Part shown: positions 28,380 through 51,027 of the stretch, one piece after another
Position numbering within the stretch: position 1 is the first letter of the stretch
Layout: each line of letters starts with the position of its first letter
Origin: a virus
DNA length: 64,000 nt
Direction: 5' to 3' (one strand)
Virus record (IMG/VR): IMGVR_UViG_3300035703_000041
Coordinates: 31,225 to 95,224 of that record
Translations under genes and position numbers: made by a program
The notes under the pieces: generated by a model
What the model saw: the letters and a program-made list of their open reading frames with translations, nothing else
Told to the model about the DNA's origin: nothing
The model's database searches: none

Positions 28380-31040
28380 ATGAGTTATGTAGACTGTCTG
28401 TTTGACAGAGAGCGTGATCGCATTCACGTTGTAGAACGAGTTAACGGAGAACGCCGTTACACAGATTATCCCGCACAATATATTTTCTATTACGATGATC
28501 CTAAAGGTAAGTTTAAAACTATCTACGATACTCCAGTAAGTAGATTTAGTACACGTAATAACAAAGAATTCCGCAAGGAACTAGCAGTACGCAAAGGTAA
28601 GACAACATGGGAAAGCGATATGAATCCTGTGTTTCGTTGTCTTGCTGAACATTATTTAGGCAAAGACGCGCCTAAACTACATGTAGCATTTTTCGACATC
28701 GAAACAGATTTTGATCCTGAACGAGGATTTAGTAGCCCAGAAGATCCGTTTACTAAAATTACGGCTGTTACTGTTTATCTACAGTGGCTAGATCAACTAG
28801 TTACACTTGCTATGCCACCTAAATCTATGAGCATGGAAAGTGCAAATGAAATTGCTGCTAAGTTTGATAACACATTTATGTTTGAAGATGAAACAGATTT
28901 AATTAAAACTTTCTTAGATCTAATTGAAGATGCTGATGTATTGAGTGGATGGAACAGTGAAGGATTTGATATTCCTTATATGATTAATCGCACTACAAAC
29001 ATCTTAAGTAAAGATGATACTAGACGTTTTTGTTTGTGGCAACAACTTCCTAAAGGCAGAGAATACGAAAAGTTTGGTGCAACACGTCAAACATATGACT
29101 TAGTTGGTCGTATACATGTTGACTATATGAACTTGTATCGCAAGTATACATATGAAGAACGTCACAGCTATAGTCTCGATGCTATTGGTGATTATGAGTT
29201 AGGTGAACGCAAGGTAATTTATGAAGGTAGTTTGGATGCATTATATAACAAGGACTTTGAAAAGTTTATTGCGTATAACAGACAAGACGTTGCACTACTT
29301 GGTAAACTAGATAACAAACTTAAATTTATGGATTTAAGTAATGTGCTCGCACATGAGAACACAGTGCTTATTCAAACAACTATGGGCGCAGTAGCACTTA
29401 CTGAACAAGCTATTATTAACGAAGCACATAGTCTTGGATTAGTTGTACCTGATCGTAAAAATCATGGCAGCGATACACAAGCTGCTGGTGCTTATGTTGC
29501 TTATCCTAAAACTGGATTACATGAATGGATTGGTGCAATTGACATTAATTCGCTTTATCCTTCAAACATTCGCGCACTAAACATGGCGCCAGAAACTATC
29601 GTTGGGCAATTGCGTCCAATCATGACTGACAAATACATTAACAATAAAATTGATAATGAAAAATGTTCCTTTGCAGAAGCATGGGAAGGACTTTTTGGTA
29701 GTTTAGAATACACTGCGGTGATGGAGCAAAAACGAGGAGTGGAGATCACTGTTGATTGGGTAGATGGCACTGAAGATATTTTTACTGGCCATGAAGTCTA
29801 CAACATGATTTTTAAGAGTAATCAACCTTGGATCCTAAGTGCAAACGGAACGATCTTTAGTTATGAACGCAAAGGTGTTGTACCTGGACTGCTTGAACGT
29901 TGGTATGCAGAACGTAAAGTACTACAAAAGAACTTGAAGGCAGCTATCGCAGCAGGTGACAAAGAACAAATTGAATTTTGGGACAAGCGCCAGCTAGTTA
30001 AGAAAATTAACTTGAACTCACTGTATGGTGCAATTCTTAATCCTGGTTGTAGGTTCTTCGACAAACGCATTGGACAATCAACTACGCTTACTGGTCGTAC
30101 AATTGCAAAGCATATGGATGCTTATGTTAACGAGTGTATTACTGGCAAATACGATCACACAGGTGATGCAATCATTTATGGTGATACAGACTCTGTTTAC
30201 TTTAGTGCATGGCCAATTATTAAAGATGATGTTGAAGCTGGCCGTATGGAATGGAACAAAGAAATTTGTGTGCAGCTATATGATAGCATTGCAGATCAAG
30301 TTAATCAAAGTTTTCCTGCATTTATGGAACAAGCATTCCACTGCCCACGTGAACTTGGTGAAATCATTAAAGGTGGTCGTGAACTTGTAGCTACACGTGG
30401 TCTGTATATTACCAAAAAACGTTATGCTGTTATGATTTATCAAAAAGAAGATAAACGTATTGATGTTGATGGTAAACCTGGCAAAGTAAAAGCTATGGGA
30501 CTTGATCTTAAACGAAGTGATACTCCTAAAGTTGTACAAGACTTTTTAATGAAAGTTCTAATGGATGTATTACAAGGTGCTAACGAACAACAGGTACTAG
30601 ATAAGATTGTTGAATTCCGTAAGGAGTTTAGTGAACGACCTGCATGGGAAAAGGGCACACCAAAGCGTGTCAATAAACTTACATATTATGGAAACATGGA
30701 AAAGCAACACGGTAAATTTAACATGCCAGGACATGTAAGAGCCGCTGTAAATTGGAACACACTACGTAAGATGCATGGTGATAACTATAGTCAAAAGATA
30801 ACTGATGGACAAAAAGTTATTGTATGTAAGCTTAAGGATAATCCACTAGGTTATACTAGTGTTGCCTATCCAATTGATGAAAATCACTTACCTGAATGGT
30901 TCTTAGAAATGCCATTTGATCATAGTTCTATGGAAGGAACTATTGTTGATGGTAAGGTTAAAAACTTGCTTGGTGTTCTTAACTGGAATTTAGCAAGCAC
31001 TGCTGGTGACCAAAACTCATTTAATCTAATGTTTGGATAA
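28380..31040 (+). CDS. family B DNA polymerase (gp43-like)
   Basis: Exonuclease FFDIET, GWNSEGFDIPY, YNRQDV; polymerase DINSLYPS, KINLNSLYG, YGDTDS, KKRY. Confidence 0.97.
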   Translation: MSYVDCLFDRERDRIHVVERVNGERRYTDYPAQYIFYYDDPKGKFKTIYDTPVSRFSTRNNKEFRKELAVRKGKTTWESDMNPVFRCLAEHYLGKDAPKLHVAFFDIETDFDPERGFSSPEDPFTKITAVTVYLQWLDQLVTLAMPPKSMSMESANEIAAKFDNTFMFEDETDLIKTFLDLIEDADVLSGWNSEGFDIPYMINRTTNILSKDDTRRFCLWQQLPKGREYEKFGATRQTYDLVGRIHVDYMNLYRKYTYEERHSYSLDAIGDYELGERKVIYEGSLDALYNKDFEKFIAYNRQDVALLGKLDNKLKFMDLSNVLAHENTVLIQTTMGAVALTEQAIINEAHSLGLVVPDRKNHGSDTQAAGAYVAYPKTGLHEWIGAIDINSLYPSNIRALNMAPETIVGQLRPIMTDKYINNKIDNEKCSFAEAWEGLFGSLEYTAVMEQKRGVEITVDWVDGTEDIFTGHEVYNMIFKSNQPWILSANGTIFSYERKGVVPGLLERWYAERKVLQKNLKAAIAAGDKEQIEFWDKRQLVKKINLNSLYGAILNPGCRFFDKRIGQSTTLTGRTIAKHMDAYVNECITGKYDHTGDAIIYGDTDSVYFSAWPIIKDDVEAGRMEWNKEICVQLYDSIADQVNQSFPAFMEQAFHCPRELGEIIKGGRELVATRGLYITKKRYAVMIYQKEDKRIDVDGKPGKVKAMGLDLKRSDTPKVVQDFLMKVLMDVLQGANEQQVLDKIVEFRKEFSERPAWEKGTPKRVNKLTYYGNMEKQHGKFNMPGHVRAAVNWNTLRKMHGDNYSQKITDGQKVIVCKLKDNPLGYTSVAYPIDENHLPEWFLEMPFDHSSMEGTIVDGKVKNLLGVLNWNLASTAGDQNSFNLMFG

Positions 31041-31048
31041 GTATATGC

Positions 31049-32050
31049 ATGGGACTTCCTCTAAGTGAAATATTCAATCGTCTTATTAAAATAAGAAATT
31101 TGAATTTTGATGGCAATAAACAAGATATCTTAAACAAGATTGATAGTTTTAATAACTACCTTAAAAACGTTAAATTTATAGAATCCAATGAATTAAAAAG
31201 TATTGAAGAAAAGCTAGTTAAAGAATTAAACAATTATAGCGAGTTAATTAAAAAAATTGAACTTAAATTAGAAAAAGCAGTTTTAGATAATGAAGCATCT
31301 TACATTAAAGCAAGCAAAAAAATGTATGTTGAAAATTTAGAAAAAATGTTGTTTGAAGAACATTTAGAGTGGAGTCAACTATGGCCGCCAACTGATTTAG
31401 AATTTGATCATTTTTTAAATCAAATCAAACAATATATTAATTGGCAAGAACCATCTTTAATTTTTGGTGCTAATAATTCTAAAATATTAAAAGCAACGAT
31501 CGGTACTGAGCCAATTTATATTTTAGAACGCTATCCAGAATATTTTAACTTACAAAAAGAAAAATTTAATGTAAGCTTTTCAAGAAAATTACGTTTTTAT
31601 GATATTAACTCAATTAATTTATTACCTAAAAATAGTATTGGGTTATTGATATGCTTTAATGAACTTAACTTTCTGCCGTGGGATATTAGTTCTTATCTAT
31701 TAACTACGTTTTCTCAAATATTATCACCAGGCGGGAAACTTATTTTCAATTATAATAACTGTAAGACACTTAGAGGTTTTGTAGAATTTGAAAACCAAAG
31801 TATGGTATTTTCAACTCCTGAAATGTATATTAAACATTTAAAAAAATATAATTTAAATTGTATACACGAATATACATCAAACAGAGAAACATTTAGTTTT
31901 ATGATTTTTGAAAAAAGCGGAGTTAAAAACTTAGTTAAGAAAAGTCCTAGTGTTGGATATATTAAACAACAGCTAACATTATCAAAACCTGTTGAACACA
32001 AAGCTAGAATTGAACATATTGAAAAATTAATAAACAATAAATTGACCTAG
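31049..32050 (+). CDS. degenerate methyltransferase-fold protein
   Basis: LPKNSIGL...ILSPGGKLIFNYN resembles the C-terminal half of class I methyltransferases; very AT-rich. Confidence 0.5.
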   Translation: MGLPLSEIFNRLIKIRNLNFDGNKQDILNKIDSFNNYLKNVKFIESNELKSIEEKLVKELNNYSELIKKIELKLEKAVLDNEASYIKASKKMYVENLEKMLFEEHLEWSQLWPPTDLEFDHFLNQIKQYINWQEPSLIFGANNSKILKATIGTEPIYILERYPEYFNLQKEKFNVSFSRKLRFYDINSINLLPKNSIGLLICFNELNFLPWDISSYLLTTFSQILSPGGKLIFNYNNCKTLRGFVEFENQSMVFSTPEMYIKHLKKYNLNCIHEYTSNRETFSFMIFEKSGVKNLVKKSPSVGYIKQQLTLSKPVEHKARIEHIEKLINNKLT

Positions 32051-39556: not shown

Positions 39557-40231
39557 ATGAAAGTTTCAGAACAGATTCGCCAACGAATATTGAATGCTGG
39601 CGCAAAGTTTCACAGCAATGACAACATTGCAGATTTTATCAATGAAGGCGAACTTGATCAACTTGTAGATGAAGTTGCCTTAGAGTTTCAAGATGTATTA
39701 CAGTCGCTTGTAATTGATACAGATCATGATCATAATACACAAGACACTGCAAGGCGTGTAGCCAAGATGTTTGTCTTAGAAACATTTAATGGTCGCTATC
39801 GCCCAGTACCAAAAGTAACAGCATTCCCTAACATGGGTTACAAGAGTTTATATACTACAGGTCCTATTTCTATTCGCAGCACATGCGCTCATCACTTTCA
39901 AAACATTGTTGGACGTTGCTGGGTTGGTATTGTCCCAGAAGATGAAGTAATTGGATTAAGCAAGTTCAATAGGCTTGTGCATCATATTTGCGAACGTCCT
40001 CAGATTCAAGAGGAAATGACTACGCAAATTGCAGAGGCGTTAAAGAAGTATGCAAAGACAGAAAACATTGCAGTGCTGGTTAAAGCAGAACATCACTGCA
40101 TGACAATGCGTGGTGTGCGCGAACATGAAAGCGATATGACTACGGCTATTATGCTTGGTGCGTTTGATACACATGCCCCACTTAAGAAAGAATTTTATGA
40201 CATCTGCTTAAGCATGAAAGGTCATGGTTAA
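39557..40231 (+). CDS. folE: GTP cyclohydrolase I
   Basis: DTARRVAKM, STCAHH, IGLSKFNR, PQIQE, AEHHCMTMRGV. Confidence 0.96.
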   Translation: MKVSEQIRQRILNAGAKFHSNDNIADFINEGELDQLVDEVALEFQDVLQSLVIDTDHDHNTQDTARRVAKMFVLETFNGRYRPVPKVTAFPNMGYKSLYTTGPISIRSTCAHHFQNIVGRCWVGIVPEDEVIGLSKFNRLVHHICERPQIQEEMTTQIAEALKKYAKTENIAVLVKAEHHCMTMRGVREHESDMTTAIMLGAFDTHAPLKKEFYDICLSMKGHG

Positions 40232-40581
40232 TGGCAACAAACGTACCAAATATTACAGTATCAGGTACAGGCGCTGTTGGAGCATCATCTGGATTATACC
40301 TAACTGGTACAGGGGGTGGTGGAGTTCAATTTATAAATGCTGCTAGTACATATACAACATATGCGAACGCTGTACCTTCTTTTTCAAATGACATCATAAT
40401 ACATAGAGATGGTAAACCTAATATCAAAGTAGCAGAAACATTAGAAATGCTGATGGATAGACTTTGCATTATACTGCCAGCAATGGAGTTAATTGAGAAA
40501 TATCCTGCATTACGAGATGCATACGAAAATTACAAACTTATTGAAGCAATGGTAAAGAACGGAAATGAAGATAATGAATAG
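40231..40581 (+). CDS. hypothetical protein
   Basis: Low-complexity N-terminus; KYPALRDAYENY motif. Confidence 0.7.
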   Translation: MATNVPNITVSGTGAVGASSGLYLTGTGGGGVQFINAASTYTTYANAVPSFSNDIIIHRDGKPNIKVAETLEMLMDRLCIILPAMELIEKYPALRDAYENYKLIEAMVKNGNEDNE

Positions 40582-44598: not shown

Positions 44599-45015
44599 AT
44601 GTCATTGTGGAATAAATTTTTAGAAGCACTTGCGCCGCCTGAGGCTCAATTAAAGTTTAAGCAGGAAAGTAAATCAAAGAAACCACGCAAACCTAAAGTA
44701 ACTAAAACTCCAAAAGAGATTGCTAACGAAAAAGGTGAACCATATATTTCTGTAGTTTCAGTTGATTTAGACAAAGCAAATGTTGGCAACGGTTCTTTTG
44801 AACTTGATTGGAACGACACATTTATTAAGCAACTACGTGCCGCTGGTTATCCTGGTAAAACAGATGAAGATGTAGTTGACATGTGGTTTAGAAGTGTATG
44901 TCGTAATGTATTAGCAGAAGCTTATGAACAAGAAGTTGCTCAAAAATCTCCACCAGATAATGTACGATACATTAATCGTAAAACTGGGGACGATGGTAAA
45001 ACAGAAGTTTCATGA
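44599..45015 (+). CDS. hypothetical protein
   Basis: GSFELDWN...VVDMWF. Confidence 0.75.
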   Translation: MSLWNKFLEALAPPEAQLKFKQESKSKKPRKPKVTKTPKEIANEKGEPYISVVSVDLDKANVGNGSFELDWNDTFIKQLRAAGYPGKTDEDVVDMWFRSVCRNVLAEAYEQEVAQKSPPDNVRYINRKTGDDGKTEVS

Positions 45016-45542
45016 TCCTCTACGTAAATGGCGAAAGTTTTAGTGCTGGTGCTAAAGCAGTAAATGATTTTTCATTTGCTAATGATGACTTTAGATATGT
45101 AGCATTAGGAAATAAACCACACCCAGATAATTTAAAAGTAAGTTATGGCATGCATTTATCTAAAATGCTTGCGCTTGCACTGGTGTGTAACGCAGAAAGC
45201 AATGCTACAAATGAACAAATACTGCTTACTACCTATGAGTATTTAGAATCTATTTCTCCAAAACAAAAAACACTTATTGTAATTGGATGGTCAGCAATTA
45301 ATAAAAAAACGTTAGAAGATCACAATAACATTTATCAATTGCACCAATACTTATCAAACAATAGTGTGCCACATTTATTTTTTAACGCAACTGATCCATT
45401 TACTTTGGTTCCTCAAAAACTACACAAGAATTGGGGTGTGAACTTTGTTCATCCATATATTAAAAGCGCAAACGGACATACCCATTTAAATTGGGCACAA
45501 TACTTGTTTAACTGGTTGACTACAAATAACATTAGTGTATAG
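45012..45542 (+). CDS. SGNH-hydrolase-like hypothetical protein
   Basis: LYVNGESFSAG, IVIGWS, C-terminal GH...WA. Confidence 0.5.
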   Translation: MILYVNGESFSAGAKAVNDFSFANDDFRYVALGNKPHPDNLKVSYGMHLSKMLALALVCNAESNATNEQILLTTYEYLESISPKQKTLIVIGWSAINKKTLEDHNNIYQLHQYLSNNSVPHLFFNATDPFTLVPQKLHKNWGVNFVHPYIKSANGHTHLNWAQYLFNWLTTNNISV

Positions 45543-47561: not shown

Positions 47562-47907
47562 GTTAGCTTTTGACGTTTGCTCATATTTAGGATTAACAGA
47601 TAATAGTTTTGACTCTGTATATCTAAATATGTGGCGTAATATAAGGGAAGATGGCGGTTATCGTTTAACTGAACGTGGACACGAATGGTTGAATGAACTT
47701 GGGTTGAAGTGTCACACGATCAAATTGGATTATGATTCTCACAAAACAAACGTAACAACTGGCAACATCTTACTTGGATTAGACCGCCATTTGAAGGCGC
47801 CATATTTTCTAAAAGGTGGAAAGCTTAGTATTTTTGATGATAGTATCAGCACACAATTGTTGCTGTATGGCGGGGATATCAAAGCTTATATTGAAGCTAA
47901 CAGTTAG
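47545..47907 (+). CDS. hypothetical protein
   Basis: GGYRLTERG; ends in TAG. Confidence 0.7.
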   Translation: MDLKRKLAFDVCSYLGLTDNSFDSVYLNMWRNIREDGGYRLTERGHEWLNELGLKCHTIKLDYDSHKTNVTTGNILLGLDRHLKAPYFLKGGKLSIFDDSISTQLLLYGGDIKAYIEANS

Positions 47908-48524
47908 TGTAAGCTTGGGTTATATATTGGATCTATAATTACACCAGTATCACCTCTAAACAAGAAATTTCCAAAATGCAAATCTAGCTGATCTCCTTTT
48001 CCTCTTATCTTGTTAATTTTCATAAGTGTATCATAAAGAAGTGGGTCTACTTTTTTAAGTCTTATAGCTCTATTTTTGATAGTAGCTGGAGAGTAAATGT
48101 CCTCAACTGCATCTTTAAACATTTTATGTTTTGGATTATCTCGGTTGATATAATCAAGTTTTTCTAAACGAACAACATAAACACCCTTTGCTATTTTAAT
48201 ATACTTTCCTTTAATTTTTGGAAGATATGGATTACCTTGATTAGCTCTAACAAATTCAAAGAACTTAAAATATGATGGATCATTATAGAAAAGCTTAAAC
48301 ACCCAAGGGTACTGAGGATGAGTAAATGTTGCACCAAACGAACCTTGGCCTAATTCCTTAAACCCTTTTTTCTTTAGATATTTAGAAAAGGTAATTAATG
48401 CATTGTTACGTCCATAATTCCATTCTGTGCCTAATTCATCCCTAGAACCAACTGGAGGAAACTTTTTTTTAGCTTTCTTATAGATTAGATTGCTTTTGTA
48501 TGGGGTAAGTTCACTAATTTTCAT
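47904..48524 (-). CDS. protein-kinase-like protein with MKISEL leader
   Basis: LGQGSFG glycine loop, VFK lysine, DLHFGN catalytic loop, IIDP; TAAATA 7 nt upstream on the minus strand. Confidence 0.8.
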   Translation of the reverse strand: MKISELTPYKSNLIYKKAKKKFPPVGSRDELGTEWNYGRNNALITFSKYLKKKGFKELGQGSFGATFTHPQYPWVFKLFYNDPSYFKFFEFVRANQGNPYLPKIKGKYIKIAKGVYVVRLEKLDYINRDNPKHKMFKDAVEDIYSPATIKNRAIRLKKVDPLLYDTLMKINKIRGKGDQLDLHFGNFLFRGDTGVIIDPIYNPSLH

Positions 48525-48581
48525 AACCAATTATTTATTTGTTTTCTTAGTTTCATGTTGCTATAATGACAATATTAAACA

Positions 48582-48657
48582 GCCTGGTTAGCTCAGTGGC
48601 AGAGCGGAAGACTCTAAATCTTCGCCAGCGTGGGTTCAATCCCCACACCGGGCACCA
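48582..48657 (+). tRNA. amber suppressor tRNA, anticodon CUA
   Basis: Cloverleaf: GCCTGGT/ACCGGGC acceptor, GCTC/GAGC D arm, GAAGA-CT-CTA-AA-TCTTC anticodon arm, GTGGG-TTCAATC-CCCAC T arm, encoded ACCA; TGCTATAAT upstream. Confidence 0.93.
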
Positions 48658-48672
48658 ATTTTTAGGATTGAT

Positions 48673-48825
48673 ATGTACGATAAACGTTCACAATTTAAAT
48701 ATGACCTTGAACGCACACTGTATGCGCTCAAACATGATATTAAAAATGTTCCAACAACAAGTAATCAACGTATCATACAATTATTAGAATATTCAAAGGA
48801 AAACAATGCACAGCGTAAAGATTAG
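48673..48825 (+). CDS. small hypothetical protein (50 aa, not in ORF track)
   Basis: AGGA SD; MYDKRSQFKYDLERTLYALKHD...; ends TAG ACG TAA. Confidence 0.5.
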   Translation: MYDKRSQFKYDLERTLYALKHDIKNVPTTSNQRIIQLLEYSKENNAQRKD

Positions 48826-49165
48826 ACGTAACGAACTATTAGAAATTGTTCGTGGAAACAAAGAAAAGCATATTAAGGAATTCAACGAAGCAGTTGAAGA
48901 TTTCAAGAGAGCTGTAATTAAAATTAGCGAAGAAAACCTAGCACTAGCTAATAGTGGTGATCTTAAAGAAATCGCTAAGATTAAGTCTGTTCCACAAAAG
49001 CCAATTAGTTATGAATCAAGCTACACACGAGCAATTCGTATGCTTGAACTAAGTGTTGAAACTGAGATTGAACTTGAGCTTCATGATTTTGATCAGCTAG
49101 TACAAGATGAGTGGCAGTGGAAGCAATCGTTCACAACATCAAACAGCACATATAAGAGCTTCTAA
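48806..49165 (+). CDS. hypothetical protein
   Basis: AAGGA SD; YTRAIRMLE...FDQLVQDEWQW. Confidence 0.75.
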   Translation: MHSVKIRRNELLEIVRGNKEKHIKEFNEAVEDFKRAVIKISEENLALANSGDLKEIAKIKSVPQKPISYESSYTRAIRMLELSVETEIELELHDFDQLVQDEWQWKQSFTTSNSTYKSF

Positions 49166-49169
49166 AGAA

Positions 49170-49362
49170 TGCGCCTGCCTCCTATACCCACAGGCCCAGT
49201 CGCGAGGGTAGGTAACGTTGTGGTGATATTGCATCTACTGCGGAGGACTAGGGGTGGAGATCAAACCCTCACGTAGGTGGGAAGCCTACAACTAAATAGA
49301 AATGTGAACGCGGTGTTCACATCCAACAGAGTTTAAATTTGGGTACTTACTCTGTGTACCGT
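49170..49362 (+). ncRNA. unassigned GC-rich structured intergenic RNA
   Basis: About 200 nt without a long ORF, with multiple complementary segments (see findings). Confidence 0.5.
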
Positions 49363-49377
49363 TAAAAAGGAAACAAA

Positions 49378-50184
49378 ATGATGTATAACGCAGGCTTCGC
49401 TGTAGCCATAAAAAATAACGGCAAAGTTCTCAGAGAATTTAACAAAGACACAGTATTCCTACCATTTGGTAGCGAGTATACAATACTTGTTAAGAACCTC
49501 AACACAAAGCGAGCAATAGTAAACATTACTATTGATGGTCAAAACATGACTAAAGATGGATTAGTTGTTAATGCTGGTAGCGAAGTTGAACTTGAACGTA
49601 AGATTACTGACAACCTATCAAAAGGCAATAAGTTTAAGTTTATTGAACGCACTTCTCAAATTGAACAACATCGTGGCGTAAAGCTTGAAGATGGTGTTAT
49701 ACGTATTGAATATCAGTACGAAAAAATCTACCATTATCAACCACTCTACTATGTCGCACCAAATGTTTGGTATGGCGGTGGTTCAACTTGGAATGACATA
49801 GTTGTTGGCGGTACAACAACCTCAACTAATTCAGTTCTACGTAGTGCAGCTATCAATAGCATACAATGTTCTGCAACATCAAGCATGAGCGAACATCCTG
49901 GTGTAGCTTGTAGCGACTTTGTGCAACAAGGGTTTAACGATGCAGGCATTACTGTGCCTGGTAGTGAAAGCAATCAGAAGTTTAACACTGTTTCAAGTTT
50001 CCCGTTGGAATACGAGAAGCATGTAATGATCCTTAAGTTGGTTGGTGAAACGCCAGATAACGAACCTATCCGTAAACCTGTTACTGTTAAGGCAAAACCA
50101 AAGTGTGTAACGTGCGGCAAGCAAAACAAAGCACACGCTAAGTTTTGTAGCCATTGCGGCACTGCACTTACAGTAATCGCATAA
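49378..50184 (+). CDS. hypothetical protein with C-terminal zinc ribbon
   Basis: CVTCG...FCSHCG. Confidence 0.8.
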   Translation: MMYNAGFAVAIKNNGKVLREFNKDTVFLPFGSEYTILVKNLNTKRAIVNITIDGQNMTKDGLVVNAGSEVELERKITDNLSKGNKFKFIERTSQIEQHRGVKLEDGVIRIEYQYEKIYHYQPLYYVAPNVWYGGGSTWNDIVVGGTTTSTNSVLRSAAINSIQCSATSSMSEHPGVACSDFVQQGFNDAGITVPGSESNQKFNTVSSFPLEYEKHVMILKLVGETPDNEPIRKPVTVKAKPKCVTCGKQNKAHAKFCSHCGTALTVIA

Positions 50185-50244
50185 TAAATTGCTCTTAAAT
50201 AGTGTTGGTGCTTTAATAGCATCAACACTATCAATAAGGAAATT

Positions 50245-50421
50245 ATGATGAGTGATAAAAAGATGGTCAAGCTTAATGTAGAAGGCATTAATGCTGAGAT
50301 TGAAGAAGATCTAATACAAGATGCAATGGCAATTCATGGTATTGACATTGTTAAAGAAATGACCGAAGTATTACAAAAAGAAACCGCTATTGAAAAGGAA
50401 AGAACAAATGAGCTAGGTTGA
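50245..50421 (+). CDS. small protein resembling a fragment of a gp23-type major capsid protein (not in ORF track)
   Basis: TAAGGA SD; LIQDAMAIHGIDIVKEM. Confidence 0.55.
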   Translation: MMSDKKMVKLNVEGINAEIEEDLIQDAMAIHGIDIVKEMTEVLQKETAIEKERTNELG

Positions 50422-50977
50422 AATTGGTTGTCGTGAATTAGTATTTCACTTCAACAAAAAGCATTTAGAAGATCCCACAATACCTATGTGGGTAGTAAAG
50501 ACAAAAGGCGAAAGTTACTACGTACACCACGTAGACTGTACAGTTCCTTGGAGCACAAAGGAAACGCCAAATAACTCGCACACCAAAGGCAGCATTAAGG
50601 TAAAGAACTGTCTACTCGTTATTGACGAGGAAAACTGTGCTACAATACAAAAACTAACATCCTCAGACTTATTGCGTTTAAAGAAGAAGAACAGCGTTCG
50701 TGTCATCACACATTTTGGCACAGAGTTGCGTTCTGCTTTACACAATATCAAGCATGGCGACATAAAGATGTTTTATGGTTCATGCAGCACCACATATTAC
50801 GTAGTTGATCTTTTCAGTAAAGATGATTTACCAATGTTGCTGTTGGGTTGGCCTAAGCCCCATAACGCTATACGTGTATTAATGCCCAATGAGGAATACT
50901 ATAAGTTGTACGATTCTACAACTAAAGATAGTATTAATATTGATGAAGAGGATTGGGCAGATCTATATGAGGACTAA
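50408..50977 (+). CDS. hypothetical protein interrupted by an in-frame TAG at codon 3 (amber readthrough candidate)
   Basis: AAGGA SD, then ATG AGC TAG GTT GAA ATT..., open and in frame with the ORF-track start at 50486. Confidence 0.7.
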
Positions 50978-51027
50978 GTCCTTGTTTTCATTACGGAATC
51001 TTTTTTGCGAATTTGAGCACTTTTTGG

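What the first reader, a model, noticed from the sequence alone, without database searches (positions are those of the whole stretch)
48582..50977. Amber-suppressor tRNA plus a nearby gene gated by an in-frame TAG at codon 3
Seen: a complete 76-nt tRNA with anticodon CUA (48614-16) and encoded CCA. 1.8 kb downstream, an SD (AAGGA) and ATG at 50408 read ATG AGC TAG GTT GAA ATT GGT TGT CGT GAA TTA GTA TTT CAC TTC AAC..., open and in frame into the 163-aa ORF; the ORF-track start at 50486 has no comparable SD. The long genes here contain no in-frame TAG and several genes still stop at TAG, so this is not genome-wide recoding. Inference: the phage uses its own suppressor tRNA as a selective on-switch or timer, with an amber placed right after the start so the protein is made only once the tRNA is expressed and charged.
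Basis: partly seen in the sequence, partly recalled or inferred. Interest (0 to 1): 0.92.

Follow-up and report, generated by a model that had tools for sequence, protein, structure and literature searches.

The report
Phage gene gated by own amber tRNA
A large freshwater phage that otherwise uses the normal genetic code keeps a UAG stop as the third codon of one conserved gene and carries its own UAG-reading tRNA 1.8 kb upstream; 123 of 130 distinct relatives keep the same stop, so the protein is very probably made only when that tRNA overrides it.

Summary
ARAGORN and Rfam (61.4 bits) both find a tRNA with anticodon CUA at 48582-48657. The gene at 50408-50977 reads SD-ATG-AGC-TAG and then runs in frame into a conserved body.

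This is neither an error nor a pseudogene. Of 130 distinct homologous gene starts from viral and metagenome contigs, 123 have SD-ATG-(1-4 codons)-TAG. Seven start with a plain ATG. None has TAA, TGA or CAG at that place.

The 23 codons between the TAG and the Met at 50486 are conserved at protein level, with many synonymous changes. They form the first beta-strand of a confident fold. An SD precedes that Met in only 1 of 64 distinct sequences.

A coherent CUA-tRNA family lies on the same strand as the gene. ARAGORN found it in 60 of 82 loci, at a median distance of 858 nt, and it missed further copies.

The contig is not recoded: 95% is coding under code 11, TAG ends 10 of 149 ORFs, and there is no other gated gene.

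The protein has no known family or fold, and the inserted amino acid is unknown. One clade, including a genome estimated 93% complete, keeps the TAG with no CUA tRNA found. A timer role is inference.

This scan reported the same module before on other genomes. I found no published description.

The parts
48559..48567 (+). TGcTATAAT, an extended -10-like promoter element 15 nt before the tRNA 5' end
   Evidence: Read directly from the sequence. The consensus scan did not list it because no -35 hexamer is present. Its function is inferred.
48582..48657 (+). Amber-suppressor-type tRNA: anticodon CUA in loop CUCUAAA, G1-C72, A73, encoded CCA
   Evidence: ARAGORN and Rfam tRNA at 61.4 bits. It belongs to a family of 48 aligned distinct CUA tRNAs with compensatory stem changes and invariant U33-CUA-A37.
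50245..50421 (+). Upstream 58-aa ORF in another frame, whose last 14 nt overlap the gated gene's start
   Evidence: Weak Pfam Gp23 match, E 0.00097, below the cut-off. A related strain (run X5) lacks it but keeps an AGGAG SD followed by ATG-xxx-TAG.
50395..50399 (+). Shine-Dalgarno AAGGA, 8 nt before the ATG
   Evidence: An SD precedes the leader ATG in 59 of 61 distinct TAG-bearing relatives, against 1 of 64 before the internal Met.
50408..50416 (+). Leader ATG AGC TAG: start codon, one sense codon, then the amber gate at 50414-50416
   Evidence: The same design occurs in 123 of 130 distinct relatives, never with TAA or TGA.
50417..50977 (+). Body of the gated gene (186 codons plus TAA). N-terminal all-beta domain (residues 4-82 of the 189-aa read-through product) and C-terminal ferredoxin-like domain (about residues 95-175)
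   Evidence: 1218 homologs, with no Pfam, PHROG, NCBIfam or PADLOC family. AlphaFold models have pLDDT 85.8 (full length) and 92.6 (N-domain).
50967..50985 (+). Terminator-like hairpin plus T-run overlapping the gene's stop codon
   Evidence: This is a consensus match only.

Best explanation
The gene at 50408-50977 starts at the ATG at 50408. Its third codon is UAG. The full 189-residue protein is made only when the phage's own tRNA(CUA) at 48582-48657 is expressed and charged by a host synthetase, and outcompetes release factor 1 at that codon. Otherwise the ribosome releases a dipeptide and the body, which has no start codon of its own, stays untranslated. The tRNA and the gated gene form a conserved, usually same-strand and closely linked, two-part module in many large phages that use the standard code. 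Placing the stop right after the start makes the gate cheap, because no truncated protein is produced, and makes output proportional to suppressor activity. Shown here: the anatomy, its conservation, the TAG specificity, the protein-level constraint across the gated stretch, and the linkage to the tRNA. Inferred: charging of the tRNA, the residue inserted, and the purpose (a delay or sensor of suppressor activity).
For: (1) Of 130 distinct gene starts, 123 are SD-ATG-(1-4 sense codons)-TAG-body, 7 are a plain ATG, and none has TAA, TGA or CAG there. TAA is the commonest stop in this contig (97 of 149) and TAG the rarest (10).
(2) The 25 codons just before and including Met27-Trp28 are conserved as protein with heavy synonymous turnover: 16,282 synonymous against 11,626 non-synonymous pairwise codon differences, and F, N, K, D and P invariant across 2-4 codons each.
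(3) These residues form strand E4-15 of a confident fold. They are also present where the same domain sits in the C-terminal half of 173- and 176-aa proteins of Atu_ph07 and Phosso, so Met27 is structural and not a start.
(4) An SD precedes the leader ATG in 59 of 61 sequences, and precedes Met27 in 1 of 64.
(5) ARAGORN finds a tRNA(CUA) on the same strand in 60 of 82 loci, at a median distance of 858 nt and within 300 nt in 18. A covariance model and a pattern search found more that ARAGORN missed.
(6) By a looser pattern, 90 of the 123 distinct gated starts have a CUA tRNA in the short stretch of DNA held.
(7) The CUA tRNAs form their own coherent family. Their median profile score is 52.8 bits, against 37 or less for every other isotype, and their stems show compensatory changes.
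(8) The cultured Rhizobium phage RHph_I1_18 has the same design (M-S-E-F-M-TAG-...IFHFNK, unannotated) 33 nt before its annotated tRNA(cta).
(9) The base after the TAG is a purine in all 61 cases (A in 58, G in 3). From textbook knowledge this context favours amber suppression, although the point is confounded by the conserved Ile/Val codon.
Against: There is no expression, charging or proteomic evidence. One clade (L005, L008, L009, L022, L047, L048, L056, L057) keeps the TAG although no CUA tRNA was found in the DNA held. This clade includes a 330-kb record estimated 93% complete, whose listed tRNA-model hits (3 of all matches in that search were not listed) I checked with ARAGORN or a pattern. 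Four of the seven TAG-less relatives still have a CUA tRNA nearby, so the tRNA is not kept for this gene alone. The isotype of the tRNA could not be assigned. Seven or so real genes of this contig end in TAG and would be read through.
Confidence: 0.8

Rival explanations
1. Attenuator rather than gate. The UAG mainly keeps the protein at a very low level through leaky read-through by host near-cognate tRNAs. The phage tRNA(CUA) is kept for other reasons and at most raises that level.
For: A clade including a genome estimated 93% complete keeps the TAG with no CUA tRNA found. TAG-less relatives keep a CUA tRNA. The tRNA has other targets elsewhere: a PTH2 gene of phage Phosso starts M-K-Y-TAG.
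Against: An attenuator could use any stop codon, or a weak SD or start codon, yet 123 of 123 gates are TAG behind a strong SD. The tRNA is tightly linked on the same strand in most loci. The missing tRNA may lie in unassembled DNA or have escaped detection, since ARAGORN missed 11 loci that a model or pattern then recovered.
Confidence: 0.1
2. Minigene or termination-reinitiation. ATG-AGC-TAG is a separate two-codon ORF (like lambda bar minigenes), and the body is translated by ribosomes that reinitiate at the next codon.
For: The strong SD plus a 2-codon ORF matches the minigene pattern (minigene literature, e.g. PMC2490762). The codon after the TAG is ATT or ATC (a near-start) in most relatives.
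Against: In this window the next codon is GTT. In other relatives it is ACT, AAA, AAT, AAC or GTA, none of which is a start codon. Reinitiation would work with TAA or TGA, which never occur. It also leaves the linkage to a CUA tRNA unexplained.
Confidence: 0.05
3. The real protein is the 163-aa ORF from the Met at 50486, as gene callers annotate it, and the upstream frame is a relic.
For: It is the first ATG after the stop. Databases hold many 161-163-aa versions.
Against: There is no SD before it (1 of 64). The upstream 23 codons are under protein-level constraint and form a core strand of the fold. The Met is internal in the Atu_ph07 and Phosso proteins.
Confidence: 0.03
4. Sequencing or assembly error, or a recent nonsense mutation (pseudogene).
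For: It would take only a single base, CAG to TAG.
Against: The TAG is in contigs from three other studies and in 123 of 130 distinct relatives at 47-78% identity. No relative has CAG.
Confidence: 0.01

Closest known systems
Stop-codon-recoded phages with phage-encoded suppressor tRNAs (code 15, TAG read as Gln; crAss-like, Lak and others; bioRxiv 10.1101/2021.08.26.457843, PMC9523058)
   Same: A phage-encoded tRNA(CUA) in a standard-code host. In-frame TAG is proposed to hold back translation of certain genes until the tRNA is available. TAG is the rarest stop codon.
   Different: Recoded phages have many TAGs scattered through many late genes and a clear loss of coding density under code 11. 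Here one codon sits in one gene, always 1-4 codons after the start. The contig is 95% coding under code 11, and TAG still ends genes. The tRNA body is not Gln-like.
Suppressor tRNAs of standard-code phages whose targets are reported as unknown (XacN1, PMC5852040; Stenotrophomonas phage Summit, PMC9022506)
   Same: CUA tRNAs in large phages that use the normal code.
   Different: Those reports looked for C-terminal extensions after amber stops and found no targets. Here the target is an N-terminal gate hidden in front of an annotated, truncated ORF.
prfB (RF2) autoregulation through an early in-frame UGA
   Same: An early in-frame stop makes the gene's output report on the balance between termination and an alternative decoding event.
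   Different: prfB uses a +1 frameshift and senses its own product. Here the codon is read through in frame by a dedicated tRNA, and no feedback is shown.
Lambda bar-type minigenes (SD-ATG-one codon-stop)
   Same: A strong SD with a two-codon ORF. Without suppression the product is a dipeptidyl-tRNA or a dipeptide.
   Different: Minigenes stand alone. Here a conserved 186-codon body follows in frame, and the stop is always TAG.

Membership tests
tRNA (Rfam RF00005), amber-suppressor type | Cloverleaf that scores above the family threshold | tested here: met
   61.4 bits against a gathering score of 29. ARAGORN also calls it.
tRNA (Rfam RF00005), amber-suppressor type | Anticodon CUA in a 7-nt loop with U33 and a purine at 37 | tested here: met
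   The loop is CUCUAAA. T32-C33-T34-A35-A36 (first-sequence numbering) are invariant in 48 relatives.
tRNA (Rfam RF00005), amber-suppressor type | Kept by selection, shown by compensatory stem changes among relatives | tested here: met
   The alignment of 48 distinct sequences shows varied stems that stay paired. The model has 19 base pairs.
tRNA (Rfam RF00005), amber-suppressor type | Aminoacylated and active in read-through | not testable with these tools
   No RNA run was listed. The isotype is unresolved, with Lys, Trp, Arg, Val and Thr bodies the nearest and Gln distant.
Code-15 (TAG-recoded) phage | Many genes interrupted by in-frame TAG, with coding density rising under TAG=sense | tested here: not met
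   95.4% of the contig is covered by ORFs under code 11. Only one convincing gated gene was found.
Code-15 (TAG-recoded) phage | TAG not used as a terminator | tested here: not met
   10 of 149 ORFs (about 7 of them real genes) end in TAG.
Code-15 (TAG-recoded) phage | Phage-encoded tRNA(CUA) | tested here: met
Programmed stop-codon read-through giving a C-terminally extended second product (Q-beta A1 type) | Two functional products, a short one and an extended one | tested here: not met
   The short product here would be a dipeptide.
Known protein family for the gated gene | Significant match to Pfam, PHROGs, NCBIfam, PADLOC, PDB sequences or a solved fold | tested here: inconclusive
   There were no family hits and no PDB sequence hit below E 0.7. 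The best fold Z-scores were 5.8 for the C-domain (ACT/RRM-like) and 3.3 for the N-domain. BFVD returned only uncharacterised relatives.

The most novel reading that the evidence does not exclude
The module is a self-monitoring translation circuit. The gated protein, a two-domain protein of unknown fold that is usually embedded among phage tRNA genes, itself acts on the suppressor tRNA, on other tRNAs or on termination. Its amber gate would then close a feedback loop that reports whether the phage's tRNA supply is intact, for example after attack by host tRNA-cleaving defences. This would also name the long-unknown targets of suppressor tRNAs in standard-code jumbo phages.
Probability: 0.15. 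Interest if true: 0.9.

Novelty: new variant of a known kind. Interest (0 to 1): 0.75.

Why it matters
Papers on standard-code phages that carry suppressor tRNAs state that no target genes could be found (XacN1, PMC5852040; Summit, PMC9022506). This finding points to a target class that gene callers hide, because they start the ORF at the next Met or translate the TAG as Gln. It shows a minimal natural one-codon translational gate, which may be the first step toward full stop-codon recoding. It is directly testable in cultured phages such as Rhizobium phage RHph_I1_18. It also flags a systematic annotation error, since many database entries for this family begin at the internal Met.

Tried and rejected
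I therefore could not check directly that the 'MAQIE/MSQIE' database proteins come from TAG translated as Gln. I infer it, because none of 130 distinct DNA loci has CAG there.
- No RNA holder was listed by the look-up of sequencing runs, so nothing can be said about expression.
- Function of the protein:
  - Pfam, PHROGs, NCBIfam and PADLOC gave nothing.
  - The PDB sequence profile gave nothing.
  - Foldseek against PDB gave no match at E <= 0.001, for the full model or the N-domain.
  - VIA-align gave only generic ferredoxin-like matches (Z <= 5.8) and weak OB-like or ART-like matches (Z <= 3.3).
  - BFVD gave only uncharacterised phage proteins, and the ESM Atlas gave no usable hit.
- Fused forms: only one longer protein turned up, and it looks like a homing-endonuclease insertion. 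The N-terminal halves of the Atu_ph07-type architecture have no informative Pfam family: only sub-threshold or isolated hits in 4 of 10 proteins.
- tRNA isotype: neither nearest-neighbour scoring nor anticodon-masked profile scoring gave a consistent isotype.
- A second gated gene in this 95-kb contig: none found.
- The GC-rich spacer at 49166-49377 has no Rfam match and folds no better than shuffled sequence (z 0.5).
- Cellular genomes: only 4 short MAG contigs carry the family, so there is no host clue.
- Literature: six full-text searches found no description of an N-terminal amber gate paired with a phage tRNA.
Full report
**What is there.** The window is bases 31225-95224 of a 95,224-bp virus contig with 38% G+C. 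By DNA similarity it matches jumbo phages only in an ATPase gene. ARAGORN finds one tRNA in the whole contig, at window 48582-48657 on the + strand, with anticodon CTA. Rfam scores it as tRNA at 61.4 bits. Its anticodon loop is CUCUAAA, the acceptor stem starts G1-C72, the discriminator is A73 and the CCA end is encoded. A TGcTATAAT element lies 15 nt upstream (read).

1.75 kb downstream, the sequence reads AAGGA, 8 nt, ATG AGC TAG GTT GAA ATT and so on. It is open and in frame to the TAA at 50975-50977. The first canonical start after the TAG is the ATG at 50486, 23 codons further on.

**Is it an accident?** No. The protein read from just after the TAG has 1218 relatives in the large protein collection and no Pfam or PHROG family. 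Many relatives are 186-192 aa long and align over the whole stretch before Met-50486. The closest ones are 161-163 aa and begin at that Met.

I fetched the DNA of 80 relatives from viral contigs, 80 from metagenome contigs and 4 from MAG contigs, and read the starts directly.

- Of 130 distinct gene starts, 123 are SD-ATG-(1-4 sense codons)-TAG followed at once by the conserved I-E-[YIL]-A-C-K-D-x-VFHFNKKHLED..PMW.
- Seven have a plain ATG in place of the leader.
- None has TAA, TGA or CAG at that position.
- The leader is usually M-S-TAG or M-A-TAG: 52 of 61 distinct TAG-bearing sequences have two codons before the TAG.

The 'Q' at position 3 of database proteins (MAQIE...) is therefore almost certainly TAG translated by a code-15 gene caller.

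Contigs from three other studies cover 50414 with no difference among the 40 rows shown (75 less-supported rows were not printed). One strain (X5) lacks the upstream 58-aa ORF, having 27 nt containing AGGAG in its place, but keeps ATG-xxx-TAG.

**Is the stretch behind the TAG translated?** Four lines of evidence say yes.

- Across 64 distinct sequences, the 25 codons up to and including Met27-Trp28 keep F, N, K, D and P invariant while using 2-4 codons each. Pairwise codon differences are 16,282 synonymous against 11,626 non-synonymous.
- In AlphaFold models (pLDDT 85.8 for the full length, 92.6 for the N-domain), residues 4-15 form the first strand of the N-terminal beta domain.
- In Agrobacterium phage Atu_ph07 and Sinorhizobium phage Phosso the same domain, including the residues before the Met, forms the C-terminal half of a 173- and a 176-aa protein. 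The invariant Met27 is therefore a structural residue, not a start.
- An SD-like motif precedes Met27 in 1 of 64 sequences, and precedes the leader ATG in 59 of 61.

**Link to the tRNA.**

- ARAGORN found a CUA tRNA on the same strand in 60 of 82 loci. The median distance is 858 nt, 18 lie within 300 nt, and some lie only 29-37 nt before the SD.
- A covariance model built from 48 distinct CUA tRNAs and a pattern search found more that ARAGORN had missed. These form a subfamily with a 3-bp anticodon stem, in L007, L010, L025-L028, L032, L039, L042, L043 and L046. One further copy lies 50 kb away in the contig of L021.
- By a looser pattern search, 90 of the 123 distinct gated starts have a CUA tRNA in the limited DNA held.
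- The CUA tRNAs are a family of their own. With the anticodon masked, their median profile score is 52.8 bits, against 37 or less for any other isotype. Gln bodies are distant, with a median of 19 bits. Nearest-neighbour scoring gave no consistent isotype either, so the residue inserted is unknown.
- The cultured Rhizobium phage RHph_I1_18 carries an unannotated short homolog starting M-S-E-F-M-TAG, 33 nt before its annotated tRNA(cta).

**Not recoding.** Under code 11 a greedy ORF set covers 95.4% of the contig. Stops are TAA 97, TGA 42 and TAG 10. Treating TAG as sense does not lengthen the long genes. 50408 is the only convincing SD-ATG-few codons-stop-long ORF case in the contig. Four of about seven real TAG-terminated genes have another stop within 0-1 codons.

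Across 1.3 Mb of related loci, the same scan found 66 TAG cases against 6 TAA and 1 TGA. 59 of the TAG cases were this gene. The rest were two PTH2-type genes, leader copies carried by inserted homing endonucleases, and noise.

**Mechanism.** The most economical reading is that translation starts at 50408 and that the full-length protein needs UAG decoding by the phage tRNA in competition with RF1. A gate at codon 3 costs only a dipeptide when closed.

All 61 gates are followed by a purine (A in 58, G in 3). From textbook knowledge this context favours amber suppression, but it is confounded by the conserved Ile/Val codon. Whether the purpose is delay, dosage or sensing is inference.

**Caveats.**

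- One clade (L005, L008, L009, L022, L047, L048, L056, L057) keeps the TAG inside dense tRNA arrays, yet I found no CUA tRNA. This includes a 330-kb record estimated 93% complete.
- Four of the seven TAG-less relatives still have the tRNA. One of them (L031) has another gene starting M-A-TAG 300 nt upstream.
- Phosso's PTH2 gene starts M-K-Y-TAG (PF01981, E 3.3e-20) and that phage has two CUA tRNAs. The tRNA therefore serves more than one gated gene across phages.

**The protein.** It has two domains. The N-terminal beta domain (residues 4-82) has no convincing structural relative: best Z 3.3, with weak OB-like rows. The C-terminal domain is ferredoxin-like, of ACT or RRM type, with Z at most 5.8. 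The N-domain family occurs in three architectures: with this C-domain, alone, or as the C-terminal half of other proteins. The partner halves have no informative Pfam family. 61 of 82 loci have some tRNA gene within 2 kb. A tRNA- or translation-related role is a guess.

**Known or new.** Regulation by in-frame stops together with phage suppressor tRNAs is established as a hypothesis for recoded phages (10.1101/2021.08.26.457843). For standard-code phages, the papers I read say the targets of the suppressor tRNAs are unknown (PMC5852040; PMC9022506). Six full-text searches found no description of this N-terminal gate.

This scan has reported the same gene family and module on other genomes, and related PTH2/HD modules as well. 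My independent checks agree with those notes and add five things: the combined count of 130 starts, the evidence from cultured phages, the ARAGORN false negatives, the clade with no tRNA found, and the non-Gln body of the tRNA.

Noticed in passing
L017:4470-5138, L058:3125-3793, L015:1582-2256: A homing-endonuclease-like ORF (NUMOD3 motif) is inserted exactly at the start of the gated gene and carries a duplicate of its leader (M-A-TAG-I-E-Y). In L015 the duplicated leader has TAA instead of TAG. The conserved gene start appears to be a homing site.
   Followed up: partly
L083:2884-3378 (Sinorhizobium phage Phosso PV764938): The annotated 'peptidyl tRNA hydrolase' is called from an internal Met. 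The frame continues upstream to SD-ATG-AAA-TAT-TAG, and the read-through product matches PTH2 at E 3.3e-20. Phosso has two tRNA(CUA) genes, near record positions 172,000 and 446,750.
   Followed up: partly
L031:8880-9257: In a relative whose focal gene has no TAG, a neighbouring 125-codon ORF starts M-A-TAG. It has no Pfam hit.
   Followed up: partly
L007, L010, L025-L028, L032, L039, L042, L043, L046: ARAGORN misses a subfamily of CUA tRNAs whose anticodon stem has only 3 G-C pairs flanked by mismatches, and a 72-nt type. A covariance model scores the ones it was run on at 64-67 bits. Surveys of suppressor tRNAs that rely on ARAGORN alone will undercount them.
   Followed up: yes
L091 (Agrobacterium phage Atu_ph07, record 430713-430787): Atu_ph07 has a tRNA with anticodon UCA (opal-suppressor type), and no CUA tRNA was found. 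Its copy of the N-domain has no TAG.
   Followed up: no
window 50245-50421: The 58-aa ORF overlapping the gated start has a weak sub-threshold match to T4 Gp23 (E 0.00097). It is absent from a related strain in run X5.
   Followed up: partly
window 49166-49377: A G+C-rich intergenic spacer in an A+T-rich genome. It has no Rfam match and folds no better than shuffles. Strain X5 has 449 other letters at 49133-49166.
   Followed up: partly
window 47904-48530 (-): The divergent gene next to the tRNA matches PHROGs for phage protein kinases (phrog_15752, annotated as an inhibitor of host transcription; E 3.6e-13).
   Followed up: no
window 31049-32050, 40231-40581, 45012-45542; contig 28878-29447: Four of about seven TAG-terminated genes have a second in-frame stop 0-1 codons later. 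These may be back-up stops in a phage that carries an amber suppressor, but the numbers are too small to test.
   Followed up: no
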